Positions 1,284 through 30,947 of a stretch of 32,000 nt of DNA are shown here, in pieces. Below the pieces are notes generated by a model, which was not told the origin of the DNA, ran no database searches, and saw only the letters and a list, made by a program, of their open reading frames with translations. The DNA comes from Pyrolobus fumarii 1A (GTDB lineage: Archaea; Thermoproteota; Thermoprotei_A; Sulfolobales; Pyrodictiaceae), in assembly GCF_000223395.1 (NCBI RefSeq), contig NC_015931.1, forward strand, positions 1,080,001-1,112,000, in the 5' to 3' direction. Position numbers and translations under genes: made by a program. Positions within the stretch are counted from its first letter, which is position 1; each line of letters opens with the position of its first letter.

Positions 1284-1413
1284 GGCTACACCCCTACACT
1301 GTGTACACCGGACGCTCAGAACTCCCCATAGTGGCTATCGGCGGGGTAGGAAATGTCGGGAGTCGTTAGAGTTTAGGTAGGGTGTGCACCGCCAGTGTGA
1401 CCGGGATTATGGT

Positions 1414-9277: not shown

Positions 9278-9290
9278 CCACCGCTCACCT

Positions 9291-9989
9291 CTAAGGCTGT
9301 TGAGACTGTTGCGACGATGGCATTAGGGGGGCCGCAAACTTAAAGACGATGTTTATGACCCCCGCTGGCGATATCACGTCGCCATCTTTGAGTTGTATCC
9401 AGCCTCTGCCTTTGATTGGCTGGTTGTTGAGAAACGTCGGATTTGTGCTGTAATCGTCGCGTATGTAGCATATTATCGTGTTAATGTCGCGAATCTCGCA
9501 CCATATCCGGAACTGCCCGCCCTTCTCCCTCCTCGTGATATACCTTATGTACGGCTCTGGAATCAGCCCCTCGAAGTCCTCACGACCGAACACTCTGCTC
9601 TTCTCGTACACCTCTATGTACCTACCATCGGGGAAGATCAGGCGGTATGGTATTGGCAACTCCATTGTGGTTGGCAGCGTTGAGCGGCCTACACCGTGCT
9701 GTTGCACCGGCTGGGGGGTCAGAGAGGCAACCACAGTCTCGCTGGAGGATACGGCTGTGGGTCGTGACATGGAGACGGTCTGTGGTGTGTGTTGTGAGGA
9801 GGAGTATGCAGGTGGAGGTGCTTGCTGGTCTCCACCCCGCTGGTAGTATTGCGCGAATGTCGCGCTCATAACTCTAGTCTCATCTAGTCTAGCCCCACAG
9901 TTTTGACAGTAGATGGCATCAGGCGGGTTTGCATAACCACATGCCGGGCAGCGTTTTCTACCAGCCGCATTGAAGTGGTACGAGGACAT
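9291..9989 (-). CDS. Zn-ribbon plus FHA-domain protein (ArnA-like architecture)
   Basis: N-terminal CPACGYANPPDAIYCQNCGARL (C-x2-C...C-x2-C), then an S/T/P/Q-rich linker. C-terminal FHA motifs: RVFGRED...YITRRE...ICYIRDDYSTNPTFLNNQPI...DGDVI. The ORF track extends to 10043, but the ATG at 9989 (MSSYHF...) avoids overlap with the upstream gene ending at 10003. Confidence 0.8.
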   Translation of the reverse strand: MSSYHFNAAGRKRCPACGYANPPDAIYCQNCGARLDETRVMSATFAQYYQRGGDQQAPPPAYSSSQHTPQTVSMSRPTAVSSSETVVASLTPQPVQQHGVGRSTLPTTMELPIPYRLIFPDGRYIEVYEKSRVFGREDFEGLIPEPYIRYITRREKGGQFRIWCEIRDINTIICYIRDDYSTNPTFLNNQPIKGRGWIQLKDGDVISPAGVINIVFKFAAPLMPSSQQSQQP

Positions 9990-10002
9990 GTATCCCACCC
10001 CT

Positions 10003-10485
10003 CTAGGCCAACGGAGTACCACACTTCTTACAATACTTGGCATTAGGGTCGTTTAACGTACCACACCTACTACATACCCTCCCTCCGGTAGTGCCTCTAG
10101 CTTGTGCTACCGGCGATACCATAGTTTGGCTACCAGATGGAATGCTAGGAGGTTGCGGGGTGCCCCCCACAGCACCAGACATGGGAGTTACCAGTGTCTC
10201 GCCGCCTGTACCGCCTGACGGTGAGGTGGGCGGCTGCACACCTACTCCTCGGGGTTGAGGCTGGAGTGTCGGGGGTGGCGGAGGGGGCGGCGTACGTGGT
10301 ACACCAGATCCACCTGTTGCTGGCTGCACCCCACTGTTCTGCGATGGCTGGGTTCTGCCAACTACCGTCTCCACTTGCTTTCTCCCGCGCTTCTTCGTTA
10401 TCATAGGCAATACCAGTATGTACAGGAGGACTCCTAGAACGACTATGCCTATTATGATGAAGATCGCTACTAGAGCCTCTAACAT
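10003..10485 (-). CDS. Single-pass membrane protein with Pro/Ser/Thr/Gly-rich linker and C-terminal Zn ribbon
   Basis: N-terminal TM ALVAIFIIIGIVVLGVLLYILVLPMI followed by KKRGRK, so the rest is likely cytoplasmic by the positive-inside rule. Low-complexity PPPPPPP/TSPSGGTGG linker. C-terminal CSRCGTLNDPNAKYCKKCGTPL. First gene of the minus-strand operon. Confidence 0.7.
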   Translation of the reverse strand: MLEALVAIFIIIGIVVLGVLLYILVLPMITKKRGRKQVETVVGRTQPSQNSGVQPATGGSGVPRTPPPPPPPTLQPQPRGVGVQPPTSPSGGTGGETLVTPMSGAVGGTPQPPSIPSGSQTMVSPVAQARGTTGGRVCSRCGTLNDPNAKYCKKCGTPLA

Positions 10486-10520
10486 TGCCTAGCACCCAAT
10501 TTACTAATACTGTAAAGAGC

Positions 10521-10530
10521 ATATATATAA
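10521..10530. promoter_or_regulatory. Palindromic TATA-like element (ATATATATAA) in the 95-115-nt divergent intergenic region
   Basis: It lies 36-45 nt upstream of the ATG at 10485 (minus operon, giving a short leader) and 50-70 nt upstream of TTG 10580 / ATG 10601 (plus operon). It is the only strong AT-rich box in the spacer. Confidence 0.35.
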
Positions 10531-10600
10531 TGAATGTTGGAGCGTGTAGTGCTGGAGGTGGTCGGTTATACCGGGCCCTTTGACCAGGGAACTTCTAACA

Positions 10601-11221
10601 ATGTCTCCAGAGATCAATCTAGAGGTACAGATAACCTTCGATCTACGTTCCACGATCCTCTACTATGCTGCTAGGGTTACTACTCATACACTGGTGATAC
10701 TCAGATACATCATTATAATCTCCTTGATAATAACCGGGTTGAACATGCTTACGAGGCTCGACTTACTTACGTCCCTATTGTTAAAATGGCCACCCGATGT
10801 ATCGGGCATAGCCCTCCTCATCCTCAACGGGTGGATATACGCTGTTTTCGCGTATGTGATAGTTGCGGCGTTGAAAGTTGCTTTCGAGAAGCTATACCTG
10901 GATTATGTGCAGTCGAGGATAAACGAGCTTGAACGTATCATCAGTAGCTCACCCGGCGCGGTACCAGTAGCGAAGCTAGTTGAGATGCTTGGGTTGAGGA
11001 ACATCTACGAGTTTCTCGCAGCGGCAAACGCGTATCTCCTCAAGAGGGGTTCGAAGAGGGTGTACAGAATCCAGGTTGACCCCAATACTGGAACCGAATA
11101 CTTGGTGGAGAGCACGTTAAGCGGACAACCGGTGTCTCTGCCAGCTGTGCCGAGCAGCAATGATAGTAGTGAGGCCGAGACAGAGATCTTCGGCTCGTTT
11201 GGTAGTGAAGAGCAGCGCTGA
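10601..11221 (+). CDS. Membrane protein (about 3-4 TM) with C-terminal wHTH-like domain and acidic S-rich tail; paralogue of 8792..9277
   Basis: ORF track gives 10580 (TTG); the ATG at 10601 is preferred. It shares with 8792..9277 the pattern TM...A[LI]K[VI][AL]FE...helical linker...[VL].E..G[LF][RK]N[IV]...L...G......D..TG.EYL. Confidence 0.6.
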   Translation: MSPEINLEVQITFDLRSTILYYAARVTTHTLVILRYIIIISLIITGLNMLTRLDLLTSLLLKWPPDVSGIALLILNGWIYAVFAYVIVAALKVAFEKLYLDYVQSRINELERIISSSPGAVPVAKLVEMLGLRNIYEFLAAANAYLLKRGSKRVYRIQVDPNTGTEYLVESTLSGQPVSLPAVPSSNDSSEAETEIFGSFGSEEQR

Positions 11222-11241
11222 AACCATAGGGTGACAGTGAA

Positions 11242-12528
11242 ATGACCGGCTGTCGGCTTGAACAGAAGCCTGCCGAGCCTATCCAGGGTACTGCGAGCAC
11301 CTATCATGTTGTGAAGCTGCTTGGTAGCGGGGGTCAGGTGTGTGCATGGCTAGGTGTAGATAGAGCCACGGGCGAGTATGTTGTGATTCGTGTTCCTAGG
11401 CCGGATCTACCCCCGGATCTCTATCAGTTGCAGGTGAACAGGCTTAGGATAGCATACCGGATACTCTATGTGCTATATCAATATGCGTCCCAGACGAGGC
11501 TCCACATGTACTTCGAGCAGCCTCATGATTATACCGATATGGATCACACGTTCATGATGATGACTAAATATGTCGAAGGAGATGACCTCGAATCTTTCAT
11601 CGCATGCAGTGAGATGGGTATGTTATCGTCAGAATGTAAGCGGGTAGTAGGTGGTCTGCTTGATGCCGTGTACTTCATGCACCAGTTGGGCATTATACAC
11701 CGTGATATAAAGCCGAGGAACATTAGGAGTGCTCCGTGGGGTCCGGTGCTCATCGACTTTACAACTGCAAAGTACTTTTACGACGTGACTCTTGGCGACG
11801 TTTATGTTTATTCTACCGGTGGGTACACCGCCCCCGAGCAGATGGAGTACGCGATAGCCTCTCCACAAAGTGACGTCTGGAGCATGGGCGCTACCTTGCT
11901 GAGACTAGCAGCTAGGAAGGAGCCAGCAAGAATACTCCGGGGGTACCCGAAGCAGCTGCGTCGCCTAGCACCACACGACATTAAGAGGATTGCTCCGCGA
12001 GCAGAGGGGCTGGCTGAACTGATAGCGGCGGCTCTCGACCCGGACCCGTGTCTACGTCCAGCCACGCTGGACGAGGCTAGAACGCTTATCGGCGGTGGGA
12101 GCATAGAGGTGGGATTCGCGGAGGTGATCCTCCTAGGCAACAAGTATACCATAGAAGAGCGTGGTGTATGCATAGGAAGATCTAGCTCGTGTCACATCCA
12201 GATACCCCGGGATAGGGACCCAAACAACTTCATATCGGGTGTGCATGCAGTGATATTCTGGGATGAATTGAGGAAGGAGTGGATGATTCAAGATATGTGC
12301 AGCTTGAACGGGACTGCGGTGTGGAGGCCGGGTATCGACGAACACTGGGTGATAGTTTGGCCGGGAAGGAAGGTGACCGGACATATATGCATAAAGGGTC
12401 ATCCCGTTGGCGAGCCACTCCCTCTCGGCAAATCAGCACTGATATCCCTCGGTTTCGATCAAAACCTAGGACCTTACCTTATCGCAGTGTTTCGTGCTGG
12501 GCCACAAATTATATCGTCTATAGCCTAA
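11242..12528 (+). CDS. Kinase-like (possibly pseudokinase) protein fused to a canonical C-terminal FHA domain
   Basis: LGSGGQV Gly loop, HRDIKPRN, GGYTAPE and DVWSMG are present. The beta3 position reads VVIRV (Arg, not Lys), no alphaC Glu is evident, and DFG is replaced by DFT. FHA motifs: CIGRSSSCHIQI...FISGVHAVIFWD...WMIQDMCSLNGTAVW. GGTGA lies 8 nt before the ATG. Confidence 0.85.
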   Translation: MTGCRLEQKPAEPIQGTASTYHVVKLLGSGGQVCAWLGVDRATGEYVVIRVPRPDLPPDLYQLQVNRLRIAYRILYVLYQYASQTRLHMYFEQPHDYTDMDHTFMMMTKYVEGDDLESFIACSEMGMLSSECKRVVGGLLDAVYFMHQLGIIHRDIKPRNIRSAPWGPVLIDFTTAKYFYDVTLGDVYVYSTGGYTAPEQMEYAIASPQSDVWSMGATLLRLAARKEPARILRGYPKQLRRLAPHDIKRIAPRAEGLAELIAAALDPDPCLRPATLDEARTLIGGGSIEVGFAEVILLGNKYTIEERGVCIGRSSSCHIQIPRDRDPNNFISGVHAVIFWDELRKEWMIQDMCSLNGTAVWRPGIDEHWVIVWPGRKVTGHICIKGHPVGEPLPLGKSALISLGFDQNLGPYLIAVFRAGPQIISSIA

Positions 12529-16439: not shown

Positions 16440-17123
16440 ATGGCGTCGGGTACAACGAGCCGCGAGGATCTGAAACGCGCTATTCTGGAGTTGTTGAGGA
16501 GTGATTGGGAGTTTCGCCGTGCTGTTGCTGCTGAGCTTGGGCTGCTGGAGATCCTGGAGAGGCTCGTGAAGATCGAGGAGAGGCTGTTGAAGGTCGAGGA
16601 GAGGATCGAGGAGCACACCAGGGCTATAAGGGCGCTACAAGAGCAGGTCAAAGCACTTCAAGAGCAGATGGTGAAGCTCCAGGAGCAGGTGGCCGAGCAT
16701 AGCAGGGTGATTAGGAATCTCCAGGAGGAGCTCAGAAGGTTCGGGGATCGCCTCGCGGCGCTGGGCTCAAGGTGGGGCCTGTACGCCGAGGATGCTGTCC
16801 GGGAGTCCCTGTACAGGATCCTCCAGGAGTATCTCGGCGTGGCCAGGGTGGAGAAGTGGAGGGAGTACGACGAGGCGGGGGAGGTCCTCGGCAGACCGAG
16901 GATCATAGAGATCGACGTTGTCGTCAAGAACGACACCCATTACTTGATCGAAGTCAAGTCGAGTATAGACGTCTACGACGTGTACGTGTTCAACCGGAAG
17001 TGCGAGCTCTACACGAAGAGGGTGAAACCACCAAAAGTAAAGAAGCTGATGGTCACATTCTACGCCGACGATAAGGCTGTAAACGCGGCTGAAGAGCTAG
17101 GCATCGAGATAGTACGCGGATAG
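16440..17123 (+). CDS. Coiled-coil (DUF3782-like) protein with C-terminal PD-(D/E)xK nuclease-fold domain
   Basis: Heptad-rich LERLVKIEERLLKVEERIEEHTRAIRALQEQVKALQEQMVKLQEQVAEH, then ...IIEIDVVVKNDTHYLIEVKSS (D...E-x-K). This family is multi-copy in Thermoprotei and is often mis-annotated as chordopoxvirus fusion protein. Confidence 0.65.
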   Translation: MASGTTSREDLKRAILELLRSDWEFRRAVAAELGLLEILERLVKIEERLLKVEERIEEHTRAIRALQEQVKALQEQMVKLQEQVAEHSRVIRNLQEELRRFGDRLAALGSRWGLYAEDAVRESLYRILQEYLGVARVEKWREYDEAGEVLGRPRIIEIDVVVKNDTHYLIEVKSSIDVYDVYVFNRKCELYTKRVKPPKVKKLMVTFYADDKAVNAAEELGIEIVRG

Positions 17124-21772: not shown

Positions 21773-22570
21773 ACCGGGACGGCGGCTTCCCACCCTAGGC
21801 GACTGTAGGGCGGAAAGGAGGAAACGACATCCAGACCTATACCGTCCCAGCCGAGCGGCTTAAAACATCATGCGCGCCGCGACCCCTCAAGCCTGAAGGA
21901 CGGTTAATGGACGCCACAAACTACACTACAAGATGCGGGCTAACATATCAGTGTACCGTCCTATAAACCCTAGAGGCTCGTGGCTCGGGCGTTGCTAAAC
22001 AAGGCCAGTATAGTTACCTTTATAGCTGCTTTTGTGAAGAGGGAGTAGCCTCTAGACCTCTTACTCTCCAACCGCGACGCAACTCCACGGATTAAATGTC
22101 GAGGCGCAATGTATAGCCGACATTGACACGTGTACAGTCAACATGGCAAAGAGGGTGGTCCAGATGACAAGCGCGTGTCGGCGTCACGCGGAGGACAAGA
22201 TGATTCTTGAGCACCTCCTTCACTTTACATAGAGCCCTAAGCCTCTTGCATCACCCCACATGATACTTGAGGAAAGTCGCGGGGAATACCTAGTTGTACA
22301 TGATGCTCGTTCAAGTCCTTATCACGTTTATGGGCATGCCTGTAGCCTTAAGCTTGTTTATTAGATGGGCGTCAGTACCTTCACCCAACCGAGGATATAC
22401 CCCACATCCTCCGCGATAAGTGGCGTCCACCGTGAGACGAAGACAGTACAGGCCCAGCGTCACGAGGCGGGTCACACTAAGATGGTCATGTGCGCCGTGC
22501 GTGAAGACAATCCGATCCCTGGGACTAGCCGAATATAGTAACACTTGTGGCCCGTCAAATAGAGTAGGCG

Positions 22571-22855
22571 ATGGTAACGACTATTAGGGTTATTATAGCG
22601 GGTGATAGTGGGGCGGTTGTAGTGGACGAGCTGCTCAAGAGAATAGTCGTCGACCCTAAGATCATGGCCGGGAAGCCCGTTATTAGGGGTACAAGGAGCA
22701 CCGTTGACATGATACTTGAGCTGCTAGCCGCTGGCATGAAACCGGAGGAGATGGCTGAGGACTACAACATAAGCCTCGAGGATGTCCGGGCGGCGCTGCT
22801 CTATGCAGCCAGGGTCCTCGGTAGAGAGGAGATAATGATTGAGACGAGAGCTTAG
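22571..22855 (+). CDS. DUF433-family antitoxin-like protein
   Basis: IVVDPKIMAGKPVIRGTRSTVDMILELLAAGMKPEEMAEDYNISLEDVRAALLYA matches the DUF433 consensus (P....G.P.I.GTR..V..I...L..G....EI...Y.L....I.AAL.YA). Confidence 0.8.
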   Translation: MVTTIRVIIAGDSGAVVVDELLKRIVVDPKIMAGKPVIRGTRSTVDMILELLAAGMKPEEMAEDYNISLEDVRAALLYAARVLGREEIMIETRA

Positions 22856-23195
22856 AATCCTCCTTGACGAGGGTATGGGGCTTAAAGTCTACTATGAGCT
22901 GAAGAGGCGGGGGTACCACGTACAATCTATACCAGTGGAGCGTAGATGAGCCCCCTGACAAGGATGTCAACGAGACAGCCGTTAGACATGGCAAGATAAT
23001 AGTGACTATGGATGGGGTTCCGGGTATCTCGCCTCTGCATACAACCCGCCCGGGGTAATCATCCTAAGGTTGAGAGACCCGAGAATACCTAACAAGATTA
23101 AAGCGATTTGAAGCATCAAGCCTCGGAGGCAACTCTATGGCCACATAGTAATAGTGACTGATACACGGATAAGGAGACGACCAATAGCGCCATAG
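22839..23195 (+). pseudogene. DUF5615 (Mut7-C/PIN-like) toxin gene with at least three frameshifts
   Basis: The TTG at 22839 overlaps the DUF433 stop region. Family-like pieces lie in shifting frames, each ending in a stop: RILLDEGMGLKVYYELKRRGYHVQSI | DKDVNETAVRHGKIIVTMD | VIILRLRDPRIPNKIKAI | LYGHIVIVTDTRIRRRPI. Confidence 0.6.
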
Positions 23196-23278
23196 GAGCT
23201 ATAAGACGAGCAAGTTTCCTAGCAGCTCACCGCACAGAAATCTCGATGCTATGATACATCATGATAGTCGGAGATGAA

Positions 23279-23335
23279 GGGAATCCAGCCTTCCCTAACC
23301 AGTGGTCGCGGGTTCGAATCCCGCCAGCGGCTCCA
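23279..23335 (+). tRNA. tRNA 3' fragment: perfect T-arm, acceptor 3' strand, discriminator and encoded CCA; no 5' half in the window
   Basis: GCGGG-TTCGAAT-CCCGC (23308-23324), CAGCGGC (23325-23331), T, CCA (23333-23335). Upstream is a GGGAA-TCCAGCC-TTCCC hairpin (23279-23295) and a 12-nt variable-like segment. The loop lacks U33, so anticodon assignment is unsafe. The complementary 5' acceptor GCCGCTG was not found between 22980 and 23280. Confidence 0.6.
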
Positions 23336-23359
23336 CTTTCCCAACTCGTACACATAATA

Positions 23360-23746
23360 CTATCCGGTTCCAAGCTGGCACTGCTTCACCCAGTTCCTTA
23401 TCTCCTCAATAAACGCATCTATTGAGTGGTCATGGAGAGGTTTTACCTGTTCGTATTCATGCTTGTGGTGTGGGAAGGTCATAATATTGTGATAATGAGG
23501 TGCATTATCGTATCTTAAAACAACCTCATCGTTATAAAGTAGTGTATACGAATACTTAGTTACCCGTCCTTGGATGATGAGTTCCGATACGAAAACCTTG
23601 CATTGACGTTTTACCGCTCTTAACTTATAGTAGCCGTCGAAACCCGATAATCCGGGTTTATACGATATAAGGGTTATGTTGGTAAATCCTAGTTCCCGTA
23701 GCTTGCTTGTGACATAAGCTACTCTATCACTAAGCTTTATCCTCAT
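23360..23746 (-). CDS. TumE/DUF6516-like putative toxin (family assignment from memory of the motif)
   Basis: The 128-aa product has the motif RYDNAPHYHNIMTFPHHKHEYEQV...SIDAFIEEI. It lies 13 nt downstream of its 86-aa partner, and a decayed second copy lies at about 18.0-19.3 kb. Confidence 0.6.
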   Translation of the reverse strand: MRIKLSDRVAYVTSKLRELGFTNITLISYKPGLSGFDGYYKLRAVKRQCKVFVSELIIQGRVTKYSYTLLYNDEVVLRYDNAPHYHNIMTFPHHKHEYEQVKPLHDHSIDAFIEEIRNWVKQCQLGTG

Positions 23747-23759
23747 TGTCTTCTCCTCA

Positions 23760-24020
23760 CTACCTCGGCTTAAGCCTCTTCCTTAGTTCTTCCTCGACTC
23801 TGTATAGTTCCTCTATGAGGCCATACCATATCATGAAATCACCGTGTATCTCCGGGTCTAGAGGCTCTGGTAGTAGCCCTTTACTCCACTTCTCATAGAA
23901 GTCGCTACTGTCCATGCCGTATTTTTCCTCAAACTTCTTAATCTCGTTCAGCAGCCAGCGTCTCCTCGACACAAGCTCCTCCACAAGTTTTAGCATAGAC
24001 TCCAACCCTCTCACCACCAC
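23760..24020 (-). CDS. 86-aa helical partner (putative antitoxin) of the TumE-like gene
   Basis: KLVEELVSRRRWLLNEIKKFEEKYGMDSSDFYEKWSKGLLPEPLDPEIHGDFMIWYGLIEELYRVEEEL. Operon position is upstream of 23360..23746, and a paralogous remnant lies at 19355-19487. Confidence 0.6.
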   Translation of the reverse strand: MVVRGLESMLKLVEELVSRRRWLLNEIKKFEEKYGMDSSDFYEKWSKGLLPEPLDPEIHGDFMIWYGLIEELYRVEEELRKRLKPR

Positions 24021-24032
24021 CCACTTATCTAG

Positions 24033-24368
24033 CTAGATTTTTAATTCGGTTACCCGTGACACGAAAACTCTTTCTGCAGCCTCTACTAGGCGCACCATAC
24101 TATCGCAGACCAGCTTTACCTCGCTGTTCTCGCGATACAACCCTCCCCAGATTCCCAGGGGGTCAATGAGCGCCCGCAAATGGCGCACTTCCAGACCTCC
24201 TCTGACTAGTATCTCATAGAGTTCCAGCTTCTTCAGCGCCTTCTCCAAGCCGCTATCGTGTATGACCTTAACAATGCTAGCGGCTTTAGCCGATATACTC
24301 CTCGCGGGTATGCTCCTCTGCCCTGAGAAGCTTAATGTGTGTCCGTTGCACAATGGTACAAGAATCAA
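24033..24368 (-). CDS. Hypothetical 111-aa protein
   Basis: ORF track only; no motif recognised. It lies 12 nt upstream of 23760..24020 on the same strand. Confidence 0.3.
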   Translation of the reverse strand: MILVPLCNGHTLSFSGQRSIPARSISAKAASIVKVIHDSGLEKALKKLELYEILVRGGLEVRHLRALIDPLGIWGGLYRENSEVKLVCDSMVRLVEAAERVFVSRVTELKI

Positions 24369-24652
24369 CTCCCGGCTATTGGTTTTAACTCCTCAAGCAT
24401 GGTTGCCTACCCTGACGACACGCTCTGCAGGGGTGTTTCAAATCCATATTCTTCCGTAAAACACTTTGTTTATAGTGGTAAACGGGTAGTCACGAGCTCA
24501 GAAATCAGCTGGCAGCTCCACTCTCACCTTAAAACATTAAGCTAGAGGTTAGGCAACGATACTCAGAGTCTCCACTCTATTCCCGCTATGCTTAGAGTAC
24601 GATTATGTAGATCAACAATGAACTCCTACACTCTCACGAGGCACAATCCCTT

Positions 24653-24882
24653 CTAGCAGTCTTCCTCATACGCTTTTATGAACTCCTCACTGATTACCCC
24701 CGTCAACCCGAGAACACCAAGGAGGGCGCCGGGCTTCAGCTCCGAGTGCAGTGGTACAACTGTTACGAACTTCCTGCCTTCAGCCTGCTTTACCAGTACA
24801 ACGCGGCTCTTCCACGTCGCCCTCCCACAGTGAACCCGAGCCCCAACCCAGCATCTCGATTACCTCACGTCCCGGCAGCCAT
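24653..24882 (-). pseudogene. hicA: hicA-like toxin gene with at least two frameshifts
   Basis: Pieces in three frames: LPGREVIEMLGWG | GFTVGGRRG | SRVVLVKQAEGRKFVTVVPLHSELKPGALLGVLGLTGVISEEFIKAYEED*. They reconstruct the HicA consensus (GFE..RQ.GSH......G...T.VP.H.ELK.GTL..IL.Q.G). Confidence 0.55.
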
Positions 24883-25100
24883 GTGGGTCCCCACCTCAAC
24901 TTCTAGTACACCCACGATGTCTCTACTAATCTGCCCCAGCCTTCCCAGAGCCTCGGTAACCTCCCCCAGGTACAACTCTAACGCCTCCCGGAGATTCCCG
25001 AGAGCCTCCTCAATGGTCCTACCCTGACTCGCAACCCCGTAACAACCTCCTTAGCCACATACATGTCCTCTTCACGCAAGACAACAAACCTCACACGCAC
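24865..25100 (-). pseudogene. hicB: hicB-like antitoxin gene with a frameshift in a G run
   Basis: GTG at 25100 gives VRVRFVVLREEDMYVAKEVVTG in one frame. After the GGGG run at about 25035-25038 the sequence continues in another frame as VASQGRTIEEALGNLREALELYLGEV... Confidence 0.55.
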
Positions 25101-25380
25101 GTCACATCCGCTCCACAGTATCCAGGTTGTTAAGGGTATTTAACCCACGGAGAACAACCTCTAGCTGCGTAAAGAACCACCCTTCGAACAACGCTTTGTA
25201 TCGTATAGATGTTACAATCTCCCGTCAACTACAGAAACACCCGCATATAAACGATGAACCCGGCGAGCCAGACAAGCATGGCAAGAAGACCTATGCCCGC
25301 CACACTCAACGCCTTGCCAGCACCTGTAGCACTCTCACAACGGGCCCGCCAGATTCGTAGACCCGAGCCCCAATAGCAGA

Positions 25381-25855
25381 TTATCCAGGTGGGTGCCTTC
25401 CAGGGCTACTAGCTAGAGAGGGCTCCTCCCCAGCCACCGGCGCTACGCGCAACGCGCCGTACACAGTGACGCCAGTCTCAACTGCCCAGCCTCCTCCCTC
25501 CCCCGCGGATCCCCGCGGGGCACGAGACACACCGAGAGACGCGTCAACCACTACCACGATCCTCCCCCGCCTATCGACTCCACAGTGCCACGCGGGAGGA
25601 CGGGATGACCCCCGAGCACCTCCTCTACCCCACGCAGACCCCAAGACTCTCATGGTACCCCACACGCTCCTCAAGGAACGCTATGATCTCCCTCCTCCGG
25701 CCAACCACGCCGCATAGAGCAACCATCCTCCTCTTCAACTCCCCAGGCACACGCATACCCAGAACCTCAGACAACACTATACACCCACGCAAACAGAAAC
25801 GCAGAGACAACCCACGCATAAGGCTGTTAAGGCTATATCTAGCAGTAAAATGCAA
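25381..25855 (-). pseudogene. Possible decayed RHH-antitoxin/PIN pair
   Basis: ORF 25625..25855 contains MRVPGELKRRMVAL...REIIAFLEERV (RHH/VapB-like). ORF 25381..25674 contains GRIVVVVDASLGV (PIN N-terminus-like) but is otherwise Gly/Arg/Pro-rich and too short. Confidence 0.25.
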
Positions 25856-26089
25856 AAAGTGTAAGATGGCCTAAGCAGATGTAATGCAGTTATAATGTAG
25901 TATGCCTCGCGCTAAGATAGTAGCTAAACTAGCCTAGTCTTGACCCGTTATTCTATACCTCCATGTTAAAAACATTATAACTGTATTTACTTGTTCCTCG
26001 GACTAACGTTAACATCTTTAAGGAGCATAGACTTCCACATCCAGAAATGTGGAAGTAAAATAAATGCATCCTTCCTTACCTGCTCTAAC

Positions 26090-27973
26090 ATGGGATTACA
26101 AATGAATAGTGAATATAGAACGCCGCGTGCATTAATTAACGAAATACTCGAATGGTGTAATGTTACAAAAATGAATGAATCGAGTAGGTATGCACTCTGT
26201 AAGCTCCTCTACTCGGCAATACAAAGCGATAAGATTGCATTCATATCAGTTGTACAAGAGTATTTAGGGTTGCTGGCTGGTAGTCCAGAGGGTCGTGTGT
26301 ATGTCTCCACTGGTGACGTGCGCCACTGGGTCGACAGCCTGCGGTATGGCAGATCTTTTGGTCTTGTACCTTGGGCTTGTGGTGTAAAACGTGAAGACAT
26401 TGGGAGGCTTGATAGGCGCGGGGGTCCACACTGGAGTAACTTGTACTATGCCGTTGCGAATCAGTTCATAAGCGTTGACAATGTTGTTGAGGTGATCCCA
26501 CCGCTCAACTTGTATAACGTGAGAGAGCATGGTATTATCGGCCTGGGTGTTGTCGTAGCCGCGGAAGTCAATCCTTACAAGAAGTTATGGAGTCGTGAGG
26601 CTTGCCCGCCGGGCTCTGACGAGCCTTGCTACTCGCTTAGGTGGTATACTCTTCCGTTAATGCTTAGCGTGGATGATGAGATGTTACAACGGAATAGGAT
26701 ACGCGTTATTGGAGTGATAGGCGAGGTTTCTAGGAAGGGTAGGAGGAACTGTGCACAGAGCCTTGGCGAAGATGCTGGCAAGCTAGTTAACGTGCTATTG
26801 GAGAATCTTGAGAATGGCACCCTACGAGACTATGTTGAGCTTGCGTATAACTATCTCCGTGAATCCCTAGTATCTGCAGTTGGCGGTGCACACGAGACAG
26901 ACCGCGGTCTAATCCCAAACAGCAAAGTGGAGCATGTACTGTCCCCTTGGGAGTCTATACTAGGTGACCTTGGTAGTGTTGTTAAGAGGATAACTGAGCG
27001 TCTCTTATCTTCCGGTGTCTATATCGATAGAAACCTCGTGGAGGTGTTTGTTGCGCTCGTTGCACACTCTAACGTGTTACTAGTTGGCCCGCCTGGTACA
27101 GGTAAGACGTTACTTGCAAGCATACTAGCCGATGTCGTCAACGCGAGACTCGTCCCGCTAACAGGACATGCTGGTTTAACACGAGTAGACCTGATTGGAG
27201 GCCCTGTGCTGCATGGTGGTAACGTAGCTTGGCGCTCCGGAGTGCTGTTGCGTGCATTGTACTATGTTGCTAGGGGTGAGCGTGTTCTCCTCCTCCTCGA
27301 CGAGGTTAACCGGATGGATGTTGACAAAGTGTTTGGCGAGTTCTTCACGATATTCTCGTCGCCTAGCCCGCGTGGCTGGAACCTAAGGGTTGTCTGCAAC
27401 GCTATATGTGACGAGGCAATGAGCTATGCGGATCTCGATGAGCCTGCTAAGCTTGTATGTAAGTCCTGTATGGACAGGGAGGAGTTCGAGGACAAGGTTA
27501 GGAGTGGTCTTAGAGTTGTTGCGACTATGAATACCGTGGATTTCGCCACTGTGTTTAATGTTGGTGAAGCATTTGGCAGGAGATTCTTCAAGATTAGAGT
27601 ACTTCCCTCTATCGACGAGAATGTTATACGCAGGGAGGTTGAGGTAGCCGCTAACTATGCACGTAGCACATTCGATGTTGACGTTGATGAGGAAGTTGTT
27701 CGTAGTTTAGTGTCGCTCTTGAAGCATTTACGTAAAGACGCGAGTAGCAGCGACTTTGTGACGCCGCTACCCGTGGGGCCAGCTATGGTCGCTGGGGTCA
27801 TGGAGGCAGCGGCTCCAATAGCTGTTGCTAATGGCTCAAGAACTATCAGGATGGAGCATGTCTGTCGTGCTCTGGACACACTCGTACCGGTAAATGCGCT
27901 TCTCGACAGGGAGTGGATGGAAAAGTGGACAGGGGCGGTGTGGAACTCTTGCAGGGCGAAAATGAGCACTTAG
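26090..27973 (+). CDS. McrB-family AAA+ GTPase with a ~300-aa unassigned N-terminal (putative DNA/modification-sensing) domain and a Cys4 insert
   Basis: LLVGPPGTGKT (Walker A, 27086-27109). LLLLDEVNRMDVDKVFGEFFTIF matches the McrB signature DE.NR....K.FGE. VVATMNTVDF carries N-x-x-D. GEAFGRRFFKIRV matches the RRF motif. The ORF track start at 25991 (TTG) is unlikely. ATG 26090 or 26102 lies 25-45 nt after an AAAATAAAT box (26057-26065). Confidence 0.8.
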   Translation: MGLQMNSEYRTPRALINEILEWCNVTKMNESSRYALCKLLYSAIQSDKIAFISVVQEYLGLLAGSPEGRVYVSTGDVRHWVDSLRYGRSFGLVPWACGVKREDIGRLDRRGGPHWSNLYYAVANQFISVDNVVEVIPPLNLYNVREHGIIGLGVVVAAEVNPYKKLWSREACPPGSDEPCYSLRWYTLPLMLSVDDEMLQRNRIRVIGVIGEVSRKGRRNCAQSLGEDAGKLVNVLLENLENGTLRDYVELAYNYLRESLVSAVGGAHETDRGLIPNSKVEHVLSPWESILGDLGSVVKRITERLLSSGVYIDRNLVEVFVALVAHSNVLLVGPPGTGKTLLASILADVVNARLVPLTGHAGLTRVDLIGGPVLHGGNVAWRSGVLLRALYYVARGERVLLLLDEVNRMDVDKVFGEFFTIFSSPSPRGWNLRVVCNAICDEAMSYADLDEPAKLVCKSCMDREEFEDKVRSGLRVVATMNTVDFATVFNVGEAFGRRFFKIRVLPSIDENVIRREVEVAANYARSTFDVDVDEEVVRSLVSLLKHLRKDASSSDFVTPLPVGPAMVAGVMEAAAPIAVANGSRTIRMEHVCRALDTLVPVNALLDREWMEKWTGAVWNSCRAKMST

Positions 27974-27984
27974 AGCTCGAGTAT

Positions 27985-29295
27985 ATGCTTGACAGAGTTG
28001 CGAATTTCTACGCGAAGATAGGTCCTCTGAAACTAGGACTGGCACGCAACGAGATACCATTAGCATATAAGGATGCAGAAGGTCTATTGTTGGTCGCTAT
28101 CGCTGTTAAGCTGCTTCTCTCGGTGTTTATGCTCCTAGAGAAGTTCTATGAGCGTGTCATTCGTGCAGCTTCTAGCGTAGAGACTATTGAGTCGCCAGCT
28201 ACTCTTGGTTATCTTGATGTACAACGCACGATTAGAAACATAGTTGCCTTAAGGCCGCCAGTTTGGCGTGTTGTGCGTAGAGGGCTAAACCCTAACGATC
28301 GGGTACATGTTTGCAGTCTTTACAATACTGCCGTTGGGTTAGCAGGCCAGGCAAAACGGATAATGGAAAGTGTAGAGGAGGCTAGCGCTACCACTATCTA
28401 TGGAGAACTTGACCGGTTGCTCAAGAAGCTCGGGAGGCTATCGCAACGCGTAAAGTCACTCTATCGTAGACTCTGCGGGTTTCACCCTGAAAGCATAACT
28501 TACAATCCATGCTTAGACGCGAGGCGTGCTTGTAACGTGTGTAATGCTCAAAGTGTTGCTGGCGTACATTCGAAGCTTCTTAGCAACCTATGCACGCTAC
28601 ACTCTATGCTCTACGGCGAGAAGGCATCACGGGTGGCCATCGTTAGGAGAGTAAAGGACGACACCGAGTATATTGAAGCAGTGCTACGAGTCTATGCGCA
28701 GAGGCTCTATGAACTCTATGTGCTCTATATGCTTCTTCGTGCACTTGAAGGACTTACACCTGGTAGGATACAAGCAAGAAAAGAGAGGGTAATCGTCCTT
28801 GAGTATGACGGGTCCATCATAATCTTCTACAATTCGAAGCCAAGGGTCGATGGTATGCTATTGAGTAGAATTGCAAGGGGTAAAGCTGTACCACAACTCG
28901 ACCCGGGTATCCTCGAGGCTGCATCGGGGAGACCCGATATCACGCTGGTTGTAGGCGATCGTGTTGCGGCTGTGTTTGAGGCCAAGTACAGCCGCAGACC
29001 TAGCTACCTAACCGCTGCTAGGTTCAAGACACTAGCCTATATCCACGAGTACGACGCACGAGCTGGTGTCCTTGTCTATCCCGGGCTAGGAGCCACCAGC
29101 TCTGCGTACGAGGAAGAGGACGACGTTGATACTATCCGTTTACTCGCCGAGGCCGAGAAGAACGGCACGCTAGCAATAAGGCTATACGGCAACTCGACGC
29201 TCTACATACTTCCGCTGTTGCCGCGCGAGGACATCGAGGAGGAGAACATTGAGAGGATGCGGCGTGTGCTCCGCAGCTTGGTGGTGCTGTCCTGA
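27985..29295 (+). CDS. McrC-like partner with C-terminal PD-(D/E)xK nuclease motif
   Basis: GRPDITLVVGDRVAAVFEAKYS (P-D...E-A-K, about 28927-28995) sits in the C-terminal third, as in McrC. The ATG at 27985 lies 12 nt after the upstream stop (ORF track start 27913 overlaps it). Cys cluster: CGFH...PC...CNVC. Confidence 0.65.
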   Translation: MLDRVANFYAKIGPLKLGLARNEIPLAYKDAEGLLLVAIAVKLLLSVFMLLEKFYERVIRAASSVETIESPATLGYLDVQRTIRNIVALRPPVWRVVRRGLNPNDRVHVCSLYNTAVGLAGQAKRIMESVEEASATTIYGELDRLLKKLGRLSQRVKSLYRRLCGFHPESITYNPCLDARRACNVCNAQSVAGVHSKLLSNLCTLHSMLYGEKASRVAIVRRVKDDTEYIEAVLRVYAQRLYELYVLYMLLRALEGLTPGRIQARKERVIVLEYDGSIIIFYNSKPRVDGMLLSRIARGKAVPQLDPGILEAASGRPDITLVVGDRVAAVFEAKYSRRPSYLTAARFKTLAYIHEYDARAGVLVYPGLGATSSAYEEEDDVDTIRLLAEAEKNGTLAIRLYGNSTLYILPLLPREDIEEENIERMRRVLRSLVVLS

Positions 29296-29308
29296 GGCTG
29301 TCTGGGCT

Positions 29309-30328
29309 CTAGTTGTGGCTTACTGATGGTGTTCTTGGTGCTCTTCTCGTTGCTAGTTGTGCTGCTGGCTTCTTTCTTGCTGCGCTTCTTGCTGTTCTCT
29401 GTGTGGGTGGTTGTCTGTTTTCTTTTTGTGTTGCTGGTACTAGGAGTACGAGGGCGCGTAGGAGCTCTGGTATCTCGTGGATTAGTCTCCTTGCTATTCT
29501 CTGTGCCTCCTGGTAGGCCTCTTCTAGTGTCATTGTGGGTGGCGCCTCTAGCCAGACTTCTACCTCGCGGAATGTGCCGTAGCTCTCTACGCGTAGCTTT
29601 CGTATCCTGGTGTAGCGTGTGGTTTTCCGTAGTGTTGCTTTCACCTTGGCTGCTATGCTCTGGTGGTCTCTGCGGGGGACTATGCCTATGAGGTGTGTCG
29701 CCGCCTCTCTCGCCATGCCTAGCAGGCCGTGGGTCACGTAGGCTCCCATGGCTAGGGCGGCTATCTGCTCGGGTAGTGGTGTTGCGGCGGTATTCGCGAG
29801 TAGTATGGCTGCGCCGCCTCCCAGCTCGAAGGCCATGTCGAGCCTGAGCTTCTCGGCTATCATCCTCACGGCTACTATGTCGAGGTTCACGCGGCGTAGG
29901 CTGCGCAGCATGAACCTCTCGAGCACGTAGCTGGCTGCGGCGCTCGCCAGGGGGTATGCGGCTAGGGGCGCGGGGGTTGGCTCCGGGTGTGGCGCCACAG
30001 CGTTGCGGGCAGCCACGGCCAGCGTGACCATCACGGCGATTATGGAGGCTACTAGCACGGCTAGGGACTCCAAGCGCAGTATCTCGTACCGCGCCCTGTA
30101 CGCCACTGTGCGCGACGCGGCGACGCGGAAAGCGACCGCTAGGCTACCGAAGCTCATGGCCTCTATTAGCCACACGAACGCCTCCATCAGGATTACATCG
30201 GATGGCTCACGCAGGTAGAGCACGAGCCCCACCAGCGACAACAAGAGCGACACGAGGGCGACGGTGTAGGCTGCCCTTAGGGCGCCAGACGCGACCAGTA
30301 TCTTTCTCACCGCCAGCCTCCTCACCAC
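29309..30328 (-). CDS. Divergent cation-diffusion-facilitator (CDF)-like membrane protein with a basic disordered C-terminal tail
   Basis: About 6 TM segments. The cytoplasmic domain IRKLRVESYGTFREVEVWLEAPPTMTLEEAYQEAQRIARRLIHEIPELLRALVLLVP matches the CDF C-terminal (ZT_dimer) pattern. At the TM2/TM5 positions where I expect the canonical H/D-x3-D metal ligands, I read MEAFVWLIE and AEKLRLD. Confidence 0.5.
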   Translation of the reverse strand: MVRRLAVRKILVASGALRAAYTVALVSLLLSLVGLVLYLREPSDVILMEAFVWLIEAMSFGSLAVAFRVAASRTVAYRARYEILRLESLAVLVASIIAVMVTLAVAARNAVAPHPEPTPAPLAAYPLASAAASYVLERFMLRSLRRVNLDIVAVRMIAEKLRLDMAFELGGGAAILLANTAATPLPEQIAALAMGAYVTHGLLGMAREAATHLIGIVPRRDHQSIAAKVKATLRKTTRYTRIRKLRVESYGTFREVEVWLEAPPTMTLEEAYQEAQRIARRLIHEIPELLRALVLLVPATQKENRQPPTQRTARSAARKKPAAQLATRRAPRTPSVSHN

Positions 30329-30947
30329 GCCTCATCACCCCCGCCACGGGCAACACCCCGGGGCCAGGACGGTCAGGCTGGGTGCAGAGCGCGAAGGGCA
30401 TGAGGGCGGAGGCCAGGAGACCCAAGTGTAGAGGTATAGAAGTTAACCGTGCGAAACAAAAGGAATATCGAGGGTATTAGTTTTTGCATCAGTCGCTTCA
30501 AAGATGATAAATAAAACAAGAGTATTGATTGCCGCAAATTATCAATAATGTGATGTTCTCCAAGCCCTGTTAGCCAGGACAAAGTCATACAGTGTTTGTT
30601 TCTCCGTCCTAACATGCTAGCTCTGATGTAACCTGCAAGACTAGGATGCACGACGCTATTGGTCGTGATTCACAAGCTTGTAACCGAGTAGTGAGCAGGA
30701 ACGGCTACACATTAAGCTTAGTATGCTCGTCCAGTATGATGGGGGCCGGTGGACCTCGATAGGTTTGTTGCCGAAGTAGCGTCTATGGGCCTCCCCGTTG
30801 ACCCGGTGCTCGATCTCATAAGGCTTGTGTACACGGTTAGAGAGCTACCCTACGAGCTTGTAGAGAAGACGGGGGAGAGAAGGCCGCGTTAGCACCCTCT
30901 TCCTGGTCGACGAGTGGATTATAGAGCTGCTGTATAACTATAATCTG

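What the first reader, a model, noticed from the sequence alone, without database searches (positions are those of the whole stretch)
25991..29295. AT-richer McrBC-like two-gene system with an unassigned ~300-aa N-terminal sensor domain
Gene 1 has all the McrB GTPase hallmarks: GPPGTGKT, DEVNR....KVFGE, MNTVD and GRRF. Its first ~300 residues match nothing I can name. The stretch ...HGIIGLGVVVAAEVNPYKKLW...YSLRWYTLPLMLSVD has the feel of a PUA/EVE-like beta-barrel that reads modified bases, but this is a guess. Gene 2 is McrC-like only in its C-terminal P-D...E-A-K nuclease motif. The pair is markedly AT-richer than native genes; spot line counts give 38-47% G+C. It abuts the TA graveyard and converges on a native-looking transporter gene. 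It could be a type IV restriction system or CoCoNuT-like relative with a new specificity module in a hyperthermophile.
Basis: partly seen in the sequence, partly recalled or inferred. Interest (0 to 1): 0.7.

Follow-up and report, generated by a model that had tools for sequence, protein, structure and literature searches.

The report
Divergent archaeal McrBC restriction gene pair
Two adjacent Pyrolobus fumarii genes, publicly labelled 'MoxR ATPase / cyclic nucleotide-binding protein' and 'hypothetical protein', are most likely a divergent McrBC-type (type IV) restriction system whose sensor is an EVE/ASCH-like modified-base reader; this corrects the annotation, but the system is an ordinary, already known kind.

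Summary
Two co-directional, overlapping ORFs lie at the stated coordinates in Pyrolobus fumarii 1A: gene 1 at 26102-27973 (623 aa) and gene 2 at 27949-29295 (448 aa). Every quoted motif is present.

Gene 1's NTPase is McrB-type, not MoxR. hhalign gives 99.5% and E=2e-22 over 267 columns against E. coli McrB. Against the MoxR protein RavA it gives 77.6% over 44 columns. The signature is NxxD, the canonical clade, not the CoCoNuT NxD.

The 'unassigned' N-terminus matches no sequence library. Its predicted fold is a PUA-like beta-barrel whose best matches are ASCH domains. Its family profile also links to proteins that Pfam calls EVE.

Gene 2 matches no sequence library either. The three best PDB matches of its predicted fold are McrC chains. 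It keeps an invariant PD...ExK nuclease motif.

The McrB-like gene lies directly upstream of the McrC-like gene in all 8 related loci. dN/dS between two Pyrolobus strains is 0.25 and 0.29. No methyltransferase gene was found in the window.

EVE-McrB plus McrC is already the commonest EVE defence architecture. I rate this a new, very divergent, hyperthermophile-restricted member of a known kind. G+C is about 50%, not 38-47%. Interest is low to moderate.

The parts
26031..26066 (+). Putative promoter region of gene 1. It holds a perfect 10-nt inverted repeat (ACTTCCACAT-N6-ATGTGGAAGT, 26031-26056) followed by an A/T-rich TATA-like box (AAAATAAAT, 26058-26066).
   Evidence: The function is inferred only from its position 24-36 nt upstream of ATG 26090/26102.
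26102..27973 (+). Gene 1: McrB-family NTPase with an N-terminal reader domain. It is 623 aa and equals AEM39049.1 / WP_014026726.1. The ORF is open from TTG 25991.
   Evidence: 100% identical to P0001. hhalign against EcMcrB gives 99.5% and E=2e-22.
26102..26284 (+). N-terminal helical extension (residues 1-61) with two clade-conserved cysteines (C19, C33). It is present only in the Pyrodictiaceae-type members.
   Evidence: AF2 model helices 8-60; alignment A1; cysteine conservation.
26285..26776 (+). EVE/ASCH-like (PUA-superfamily) beta-barrel reader domain, residues 62-225. W76, S79, W91, G147, G149, W163 and R180 are invariant.
   Evidence: AF2 pLDDT 80.9 with beta-alpha-beta-alpha-beta(n) order. 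Foldseek best matches are ASCH 5y6b/5gus (prob 0.98, TMt 0.50). hhalign to the EVE-like set gives 98.1%. One member of that set passes Pfam's EVE cutoff.
26777..27016 (+). Helical linker plus a low-confidence segment between reader and motor (residues 226-305).
   Evidence: AF2 helices 222-260, with pLDDT below 50 after residue 264.
27017..27781 (+). McrB-type AAA+ NTPase core (residues about 306-560). It holds Walker A at 27086-27109, Walker B plus DExNR..KVFGE at 27299-27340, the NxxD signature MNTVD at 27527-27541 and GRRF at 27575-27586.
   Evidence: Pfam AAA_5 at 1.3e-17. BLASTP against EcMcrB gives E=2e-13 with all motifs aligned. The family profile against PDB gives EcMcrB 2e-24 and TgMcrB 5e-20. 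Coordinates.
27395..27469 (+). Clade-specific CxxxC...CxxC insert (C432, C436, C453, C456) between Walker B and NxxD.
   Evidence: Conserved in 7-10 of 10 Pyrodictiaceae-type members and 0 of 6 others. Its function is unknown.
27949..29295 (+). Gene 2: McrC-like subunit, 448 aa, equal to AEM39050.1 / WP_014026727.1, Pyrfu_1187. It overlaps the 3' end of gene 1 by 25 nt. The ORF is open from GTG 27913.
   Evidence: The top three Foldseek hits are McrC chains 6ut6_G, 6ut7_G and 6hz4_M.
27985..28776 (+). Gene 2's N-terminal helical and beta region, predicted to be the McrC scaffold and finger. It carries conserved ES..G, PPVW and an invariant basic residue (R/K99, 28279-28281).
   Evidence: AF2 secondary structure. 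Fold alignments to McrC span 419-459 columns. Conservation. The role of R/K99 as the stimulatory finger is inference.
28777..29295 (+). Gene 2's C-terminal PD-(D/E)xK nuclease domain. The catalytic motif P317-D318...E332-A-K334 lies at 28933-28986, followed by the invariant YLTxARFK..AY..EY block at 29005-29058.
   Evidence: Invariant across all 8 sequences of alignment A2. The motif aligns with EcMcrC TDITI..VDAKY and with Cas4 4ic1. Fold hits include EcoT38I, Can2, BstYI and BbvCI.

Best explanation
This is a two-gene, modification-dependent (type IV) McrBC restriction system of Pyrolobus fumarii.

Shown here:
- Gene 1 joins a divergent EVE/ASCH-like PUA-superfamily beta-barrel to a McrB-type AAA+ NTPase of the canonical NxxD clade.
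- Gene 2 is translationally overlapped with gene 1. It is a highly divergent McrC, with a finger/scaffold-like N-terminal half and a PD-(D/E)xK nuclease.
- The pair is a conserved, selected unit, and no methyltransferase gene was found in the 32-kb window.

Inferred by homology to the E. coli and Thermococcus gammatolerans complexes (PMC7680126):
- The reader domain binds a modified base in foreign DNA.
- The McrB subunits form a nucleotide-bound hexamer.
- McrC inserts its finger into the ring and stimulates NTP (probably GTP) hydrolysis through a basic residue that repositions the NxxD motif.
- Hydrolysis-driven translocation brings complexes together, and the McrC nuclease then cuts both strands.

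Which modification is read, and whether GTP or ATP is used, remain unknown.
For: NTPase is McrB:
- BLASTP against EcMcrB gives E=2e-13, aligning Walker A, DExNR..KVFGE, MNTxD and RRF.
- The family profile against PDB gives EcMcrB 2e-24 and TgMcrB 5e-20. These are the best single-module hits.
- hhalign against EcMcrB gives 99.5%, E=2e-22, 267 columns. Against the MoxR protein RavA it gives 77.6% over 44 columns.
- NxxD is the defining McrB signature (PMC11090510; PMC7680126).

Reader domain:
- The AF2 model has pLDDT 80.9 and pTM 0.83.
- The 8 best PDB fold hits are ASCH chains. ATP-sulfurylase and further ASCH entries rank lower, and an SRA domain also appears; that the sulfurylase and SRA domains are PUA-like is my own knowledge.
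- The profile finds only 53 representatives among 1.84 billion proteins. Almost all full-length ones carry McrB motifs.
- The weakest hits include a protein that passes Pfam's EVE cutoff. hhalign to that set gives 98.1%.

McrC:
- The top three PDB fold hits are McrC chains at prob 1.00.
- D318, E332 and K334 are invariant.
- Its 448 aa is comparable to TgMcrC's 458 aa, which has scaffold, finger and nuclease domains.

Unit and function:
- The McrB-like gene lies directly upstream of the McrC-like gene in 8 of 8 related loci.
- dN/dS is 0.25 and 0.29, with intact ORFs in two strains.
- The pair sits in a toxin-antitoxin and defence-type neighbourhood both here and in Pyrodictium abyssi.
- No methyltransferase domain was found in any ORF scanned in the window.
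Against: - There are no biochemical data.
- Gene 2 has no significant sequence match to McrC, DUF2357 or Pfam McrBC. hhalign against EcMcrC gives only E=0.11.
- The McrC fold matches have low TM-scores (0.22-0.29) and high rmsd. The gene 2 model is of moderate confidence (pLDDT 75.6, pTM 0.56, alignment of 8 sequences).
- Reader-domain fold matches are modest. The best E is 5e-3 and none is at or below 1e-3.
- Pfam's EVE model does not hit this protein itself. The hhalign link is partly circular, because the EVE-like set was retrieved with the query profile.
- The full McrB consensus MNxxDRS reads MNTVDFA here. The R is kept only in other family members.
- The best fold match, Zymomonas ASCH, is an RNA-acting protein by my recollection, so an RNA ligand is not excluded.
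Confidence: 0.8

Rival explanations
1. Gene 1 is a MoxR-type AAA+ chaperone or remodeller, as RefSeq names it, or a cyclic-nucleotide-binding protein, as GenBank names it. Gene 2 would then be an unrelated hypothetical protein.
For: The best Pfam hit is the generic AAA_5. bpMoxR (9.5e-5) and NCBIfam GvpN (2e-9) score similarly to, or better than, the NCBIfam McrB model (7.7e-6) on the N-terminal half of the ATPase.
Against: hhalign against RavA covers only the Walker A region (44 columns, 77.6%), while EcMcrB covers 267 columns at 99.5%. MoxR and NorQ are absent from the 60 best profile hits, whereas McrB proteins lead. The McrB-type DExNR..KVFGE and RRF motifs are present. There is no VWA-domain partner. 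The conserved partner is instead a PD-(D/E)xK protein with a McrC-like fold. No cNMP-binding domain was detected.
Confidence: 0.03
2. It is a McrBC-derived system that senses or cleaves RNA rather than modified DNA, as proposed for CoCoNuTs. The PUA/ASCH-like domain would act as an RNA binder.
For: The best fold matches are ASCH domains. PUA/ASCH domains are classically RNA-binding (PMC7641849). Some McrBC branches are predicted to target RNA (PMC11090510).
Against: The signature is NxxD, not the NxD that defines the CoCoNuT branch. There are no coiled-coil, CSD, helicase or extra nuclease genes. The profile link is to EVE-like modules fused to nuclease-like or DGQHR/HEPN regions that are typical of DNA-modification sensing. 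CoCoNuTs are nearly absent from archaea.
Confidence: 0.08
3. It is a sequence-specific, LlaJI/LlaI-like McrBC relative. It would cut unmodified DNA at a recognition site and would need a protecting methyltransferase.
For: McrB homologues with site-specific N-terminal domains exist, for example the LlaJI B3 domain (PMC7680126).
Against: The N-terminal fold is PUA-like, not B3. No methyltransferase domain was found in the ORFs scanned across the window, and none appears among the called genes beside the pair in four related loci. The organisation is strictly two genes.
Confidence: 0.04
4. The pair is an inactive relic decaying in a toxin-antitoxin 'graveyard'.
For: Pseudogenised HicAB remnants lie immediately upstream. 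The neighbouring segment varies between strains. Codon composition is atypical.
Against: Both ORFs are intact and of identical length in two Pyrolobus genomes, with dN/dS of 0.25 and 0.29. Every catalytic motif is intact.
Confidence: 0.05

Closest known systems
EVE-McrB + McrC type IV restriction systems (Bell et al. 2020, PMC7641849)
   Same: A PUA-superfamily modified-base reader is fused to the N-terminus of a McrB NTPase. A PD-(D/E)xK McrC gene lies downstream and there is no cognate methyltransferase. The paper describes this as the commonest EVE defence architecture, found in about 300 bacterial and archaeal genera.
   Different: It carries an extra helix-containing insert and, in the Pyrodictiaceae-type clade, a 60-aa helical extension and six conserved cysteines. 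Its best fold matches are ASCH rather than EVE. I did not find it in the held supplements of either census paper.
Thermococcus gammatolerans McrBC (YTH-McrB + McrC; PDB 6ut3-6ut8; PMC7680126)
   Same: It is an archaeal hyperthermophile system with a PUA-like (YTH) reader, an NxxD McrB and a McrC of about 458 aa with scaffold, finger and nuclease domains. TgMcrC is the second-best fold match to gene 2. TgMcrB is among the best profile matches to gene 1.
   Different: The linker here is long (about 80 aa) against 7 aa in TgMcrB. Sequence identity between the McrC proteins is undetectable.
Escherichia coli K-12 McrBC
   Same: Walker A, DExNR..KVFGE, NxxD and RRF all align. The gene order is mcrB then mcrC, with overlap. 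The nuclease motifs align as EcMcrC TDITI..VDAKY against PDITL..FEAKY. EcMcrC is the best fold match to gene 2.
   Different: EcMcrB uses a DUF3578/ADAM 5mC reader rather than a PUA-like barrel. EcMcrC hits Pfam McrBC at 2e-27, while gene 2 hits nothing.
Staphylothermus marinus McrB N-terminal domain (Hosford et al. 2020, J Struct Biol 211:107572; cited in PMC12707154)
   Same: By its title, it is a PUA-like N-terminal domain on the McrB of a hyperthermophilic crenarchaeon.
   Different: The paper is not held, so I could make no direct comparison. No entry described as McrB is among the top 50 fold hits. If related at all, it is a different family within the superfamily.
CoCoNuT systems (PMC11090510)
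   Same: They have a McrB-like NTPase plus a McrC-like nuclease.
   Different: CoCoNuTs have an NxD signature, long coiled-coil fusions, tandem nucleases and accessory genes, and are nearly absent from archaea. Here the signature is NxxD, there is no coiled-coil fusion, and there are only two genes.

Membership tests
McrB-like GTPase (AAA+) | [quoted passage not shown] | tested here: met
   GPPGTGKT is at 329-336 and DEVNR at 400-404. Pfam AAA_5 scores 1.3e-17.
McrB-like GTPase (AAA+) | NxxD signature motif in place of sensor 1 (PMC11090510; PMC7680126) | tested here: met
   M-N476-T-V-D480 aligns with EcMcrB MNTAD. The motif is kept in every full-length family member.
McrB-like GTPase (AAA+) | Full consensus MNxxDRS (PMC7680126) | tested here: inconclusive
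   The motif reads MNTVDFA here. The Pyrodictiaceae-type clade has D-[FY]-[AT], while other members of the same family keep D-R.
McrB-like GTPase (AAA+) | Closer to McrB than to other AAA_5 / MoxR ATPases over the whole domain | tested here: met
   hhalign against EcMcrB gives 99.5%, E=2e-22, 267 columns. Against RavA it gives 77.6%, 44 columns. McrB proteins lead the PDB profile ranking.
McrB-like GTPase (AAA+) | GTP preference, hexamer assembly and McrC-stimulated hydrolysis | not testable with these tools
   This needs biochemistry. The determinants of GTP selectivity lie outside the core motifs (PMC7680126).
McrC | Encoded next to mcrB in the same operon, usually downstream | tested here: met
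   It overlaps gene 1 by 25 nt. The order is the same in 8 of 8 related loci.
McrC | N-terminal DUF2357 / finger domain that inserts into the McrB hexamer | tested here: inconclusive
   Pfam finds no DUF2357 or McrBC domain in any member. Fold alignments to three McrC chains span 419-459 columns at prob 1.00, but with TM-scores of 0.22-0.29. UniRef names the Ignisphaera homologue DUF2357.
McrC | C-terminal PD-(D/E)xK nuclease with catalytic D...(D/E)xK | tested here: met
   D318, E332 and K334 are invariant. The motif aligns with EcMcrC TDITI..VDAKY. Fold hits include several PD-(D/E)xK nucleases.
McrC | Basic residue (Lys157 in EcMcrC; an arginine/lysine in the McrC proteins per PMC7680126) that repositions the NxxD motif | tested here: inconclusive
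   An invariant R/K99 follows the conserved PPVW strand, and R/K240 is also invariant. I could not establish equivalence to Lys157 without coordinates.
EVE domain (PUA/ASCH superfamily) | Match to the Pfam EVE model (PF01878) | tested here: not met
   None of the 13 N-terminal domains scanned matched EVE at E<=1. Only distant non-McrB relatives do: P0105 passes the cutoff at 26.8 bits against 23, and P0108 matches weakly at 14.4 bits, below it.
EVE domain (PUA/ASCH superfamily) | Profile-level homology to EVE-family proteins | tested here: met
   hhalign of A3 against A5 gives 98.1%, E=1.2e-13, over residues 62-225. This is partly circular, because A5 was retrieved with the A3 profile.
EVE domain (PUA/ASCH superfamily) | [quoted passage not shown] | tested here: met
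   AF2 gives E66-71, H73-86, E89-96, H111-119, then strands 122-188 and 217-220. The best fold hits are ASCH at prob 0.98 and TMt 0.50.
EVE domain (PUA/ASCH superfamily) | Binds a flipped modified base in an aromatic pocket | not testable with these tools
   W76, W91, W163 and R180 are invariant and are candidates only.
CoCoNuT | NxD signature and a long coiled-coil fused to the GTPase | tested here: not met
   The signature is NxxD. The N-terminus is a beta-barrel plus short helices. The definition comes from PMC11090510.
MoxR AAA+ | MoxR-type core with an adjacent VWA-domain partner (as with E. coli ravA-viaA) | tested here: not met
   Only the Walker A region aligns to RavA. The partner is nuclease-like, and no VWA domain was found in the ORFs scanned in the window.

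The most novel reading that the evidence does not exclude
The reader domain defines a hyperthermophile-specific branch of EVE/ASCH-like modules. It would recognise a DNA modification not covered by the characterised McrB readers (5mC, 5hmC, 4mC, 6mA), for instance one used by viruses of hyperthermophilic archaea. The clade-specific cysteines would form metal or disulfide sites that give a structurally new McrB variant. These include the CxxxC...CxxC set inserted between Walker B and the NxxD motif, and six cysteines in the reader domain.
Probability: 0.15. Interest if true: 0.5.

Novelty: new member of a known kind. Interest (0 to 1): 0.27.

Why it matters
First, it corrects the public annotation of Pyrfu_1187 and its upstream neighbour. 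They are currently a 'hypothetical protein' and a 'cyclic nucleotide-binding protein' / 'MoxR family ATPase'. They should be annotated as McrC and McrB.

Second, it identifies a small family of McrBC systems in hyperthermophilic archaea, with about 50 representative clusters among 1.84 billion proteins. Pfam, NCBIfam and PADLOC did not recognise the reader domain or the nuclease subunit as such. Defence-system censuses that rely on those models would probably undercount such systems in Thermoproteota.

Third, a McrBC from an organism that grows above 100 C could be a robust subject for structural work, or a thermostable modification-dependent nuclease.

It does not reveal a new defence principle.

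Tried and rejected
Searches that found nothing:
- Direct sequence searches for the reader domain and for gene 2 were empty or insignificant. This covers Pfam, NCBIfam, PADLOC, PDB phmmer and PDB profile searches.
- Pfam on the Ignisphaera homologue that UniRef names DUF2357 gave no hit, so that name stays a lead only.
- hhalign of the gene 2 profile against EcMcrC gave only E=0.11 at the nuclease motif.
- Rfam and tRNA scans of the window gave nothing. I found no tRNA-linked integration site and no RNA explanation for the ORF-poor stretch at 24400-25990. That stretch instead holds HicAB pseudogene remnants.
- No tandem repeats were found at 24000-26100.

Literature:
- The S. marinus McrB NTD paper and the 2026 LlaI preprint are not held.
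- No held paper mentions both Pyrolobus fumarii and McrBC.
- The accessions are absent from the held supplements of both census papers, which may be truncated.

Readings rejected:
- CoCoNuT, because of the NxxD signature.
- MoxR.
- Cyclic-nucleotide binding, because no such domain is present.
- Decaying relic, because dN/dS is 0.25-0.29.

Method notes:
- The bacterial sigma-70 and terminator scan does not apply to an archaeon, so I ignored it.
- The genome-contig scan returned only 5 loci because its peptide patterns were strict. The taxonomic distribution is therefore a lower bound.

Full report
**Source and observation.**
The window is from Pyrolobus fumarii 1A. Gene 1's product is 100% identical to AEM39049.1 / WP_014026726.1.

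Public gene calls start later, at ATG 26102 (623 aa) and TTG 27949 (448 aa). Relatives do not align with the first 37 ORF residues of gene 1. With those starts, gene 2 overlaps the end of gene 1 by 25 nt.

The pair is 50.2% G+C with GC3 of 0.50-0.52. Native-looking genes in the window are about 60% G+C with GC3 of 0.77-0.80. 'AT-richer' is therefore correct, but '38-47%' is too low.

A toxin-antitoxin island lies upstream, with PIN, MazE, DUF433 and TumE genes and frameshifted HicAB remnants. A convergent cation-diffusion-facilitator gene lies 13 nt downstream.

**Gene 1 motor.**
Pfam reports AAA_5 at 1.3e-17. That hit cannot separate McrB from MoxR or dynein-type ATPases, since midasin, McrB and NorQ all match the core.

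Finer tests favour McrB:
- BLASTP against E. coli McrB aligns residues 306-510 with 177-365 (E=2e-13). Walker A, DExNR..KVFGE, MNTxD and RRF are all in register.
- The 16-member family profile ranks EcMcrB (2e-24) and TgMcrB (5e-20) directly after midasin. Midasin's score sums six tandem AAA_5 modules. MoxR and NorQ are not in the top 60.
- hhalign gives 99.5%, E=2e-22 and 267 columns against EcMcrB. Against the MoxR protein RavA it gives 77.6% and 44 columns, covering Walker A only.

The signature N476-T-V-D480 is the NxxD version that defines canonical McrB GTPases. CoCoNuTs have NxD and coiled-coil fusions (PMC11090510). The fuller consensus MNxxDRS (PMC7680126) is only partly kept here, as MNTVDFA. 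Other members of the same family keep D-R.

**Gene 1 reader domain.**
At sequence level residues 1-285 match nothing in Pfam or among PDB sequences, even as a 13-sequence profile.

An AlphaFold2 model built on that alignment is confident, with pLDDT 80.9 and pTM 0.83. It shows three parts:
- a helical extension at residues 8-60;
- a beta-alpha-beta-alpha-beta(n) barrel at residues 66-220;
- helices at residues 222-260.

Its eight best PDB fold matches are all chains of the Zymomonas ASCH domain (prob up to 0.98, TM 0.50 on the target, E=5e-3). Other ASCH entries, an SRA domain and ATP-sulfurylase entries rank lower.

An exhaustive HMMER search of 1.84 billion representatives found only 53 proteins with the domain. 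Essentially all full-length ones are 540-620 aa and carry GPPGxGKT, DExNRADxDKAFGEFF and (T/M)NxxD..RRF. The domain is therefore specific to this McrB subfamily.

The weakest hits are different proteins:
- P0105 passes Pfam's EVE gathering score (26.8 bits against 23) and also hits YTH weakly.
- P0104 joins the same module to a DGQHR-containing region and a HEPN domain.

That value is partly circular, because the set was retrieved with the query profile.

W76, W91, W163 and R180 are invariant and are candidate pocket residues. That assignment is inference.

**Gene 2.**
No library recognises it. Its small family of 9 known relatives keeps an invariant GRPD...E-x-K...YLTxARFK..AY..EY block.

The PD...ExK motif aligns with EcMcrC TDITI..VDAKY (E=0.11) and with Cas4 4ic1 (E=0.028). 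Neither value is significant alone.

The AF2 model has pLDDT 75.6. Its three best PDB matches are the McrC chains of the E. coli and T. gammatolerans complexes: 6ut6_G at 3.4e-5, 6ut7_G at 6.6e-5 and 6hz4_M at 1.1e-4. All are at prob 1.00 with 419-459 aligned columns. Other PD-(D/E)xK nucleases follow.

TM-scores are low (0.22-0.29). I attribute this to differing domain orientation, but it keeps the N-terminal 'finger' assignment short of proof. The length (448 aa) and predicted layout fit TgMcrC, which is 458 aa with scaffold, finger and nuclease domains.

**The pair as a unit.**
The McrB-like gene lies directly upstream of the McrC-like gene, on the same strand, in all eight other loci examined. 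These are Pyrodictium abyssi, two Pyrolobus assemblies, Desulfurococcaceae/Desulfurococcales MAGs, an Aenigmatarchaeota MAG and one JGI metagenome contig.

Between P. fumarii 1A and the second Pyrolobus genome, both ORFs are intact and of equal length. dN/dS is 0.25 and 0.29, so the system is maintained and not decaying.

No methyltransferase domain was found in any ORF scanned across the 32-kb window. That fits a modification-dependent enzyme with no cognate methylase.

**Mechanism.**
Shown here: the domain architecture, intact catalytic motifs, operon coupling, conservation and selection.

Inferred from the solved Ec and Tg complexes (PMC7680126):
- McrB hexamerises on nucleotide;
- McrC's finger enters the ring, and a basic residue (candidates R/K99 and R/K240) repositions the NxxD motif to stimulate hydrolysis;
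- translocation and encounter of complexes trigger double-strand cleavage by D318/E332/K334.

The modification recognised and the GTP-versus-ATP preference cannot be determined here.

**Rivals.**
- MoxR or cNMP-binding, as in the public annotation: rejected.
- CoCoNuT or RNA-targeting: unlikely (NxxD signature, two genes only). Not excluded, because ASCH and PUA domains often bind RNA.
- LlaJI-like site-specific enzyme: unlikely (PUA-like fold, no methylase).
- Relic: rejected by selection.

**Novelty.**
EVE-McrB plus McrC is described as the most common EVE-containing defence architecture (PMC7641849). PUA-like readers are also known on archaeal McrB proteins, namely the T. gammatolerans YTH domain and the S. 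marinus PUA-like domain. This is therefore a new and very divergent member of a known kind.

What sets it apart:
- It is restricted to hyperthermophilic Thermoproteota and DPANN archaea.
- The linker is long.
- The Pyrodictiaceae-type clade has a 60-aa helical extension and 10 to 12 conserved cysteines, including a CxxxC...CxxC set between Walker B and NxxD. Their role is unexplained.

Interest is low to moderate. The value lies in a useful re-annotation and a possible thermostable enzyme, not in a new principle.

Noticed in passing
window 26031-26066: A perfect 10-nt inverted repeat (ACTTCCACAT-N6-ATGTGGAAGT) sits directly 5' of an A/T-rich TATA-like box and the start of gene 1. It may be an operator for a regulator of the restriction operon.
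   Followed up: no
window 26102-27973 (gene 1 residues 19, 33, 93, 168, 176, 217, 432, 436, 453, 456, 617): Eleven cysteine positions are conserved in 7-10 of 10 Pyrodictiaceae-type family members and in none of the 6 other members. They include a CxxxC...CxxC set between Walker B and the NxxD motif. These may be metal sites or stabilising disulfides.
   Followed up: partly
window 24640-25100, minus strand: Frameshifted remnants of a HicB-like antitoxin and a HicA-like toxin lie here. They explain the ORF-poor, strand-biased stretch upstream of gene 1. No Rfam family or tRNA was found there.
   Followed up: partly
window 22247-25586 and 29920-30598, compared with L011: A second Pyrolobus genome is collinear with 25587-29683 at 94% nt identity. 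It lacks the 3.3-kb toxin-antitoxin segment just upstream (DUF433, TumE, HicAB remnants) and has an internal deletion in the cation-efflux gene. The McrBC pair therefore borders a strain-variable region.
   Followed up: partly
window 6788-12528: This is a cluster of two Ser/Thr protein kinases (one with an FHA domain), a PP2C phosphatase, an FHA/zinc-ribbon protein and another zinc-ribbon protein. Its G+C is lower (about 0.51-0.52, GC3 0.54-0.59) than that of the flanking genes.
   Followed up: no
window 16440-17123 (+): A 227-aa protein has a coiled-coil DUF3782 region and a C-terminal PDDEXK_10 nuclease domain. It lies at the start of the toxin-antitoxin island.
   Followed up: no
window 1384-5706 (+): A 1440-aa protein has a beta-propeller-like region and at least five CarboxypepD_reg / Ig-like repeats. 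It is probably a cell-surface protein.
   Followed up: no
P0104 (metagenomic protein, 886 aa; not in the window): The same EVE-like module is fused to a DGQHR-motif region and a C-terminal Swt1-like HEPN domain. P0106 and P0107 join it to a C-terminal region with a D...E-V-[QE] motif.
   Followed up: no
L003 3015-4154: In a JGI metagenome contig, a radical-SAM gene lies 39 nt upstream of the McrB-like gene on the same strand. This may be chance, or it may be a third operon member in that branch.
   Followed up: no
window 26102-29295 (public records AEM39049.1/WP_014026726.1 and AEM39050.1/WP_014026727.1): The public names for the pair are 'cyclic nucleotide-binding protein', 'MoxR family ATPase' and 'hypothetical protein'. 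No analysis here supports any of them, and they should be replaced by McrB-family and McrC-family annotations.
   Followed up: yes
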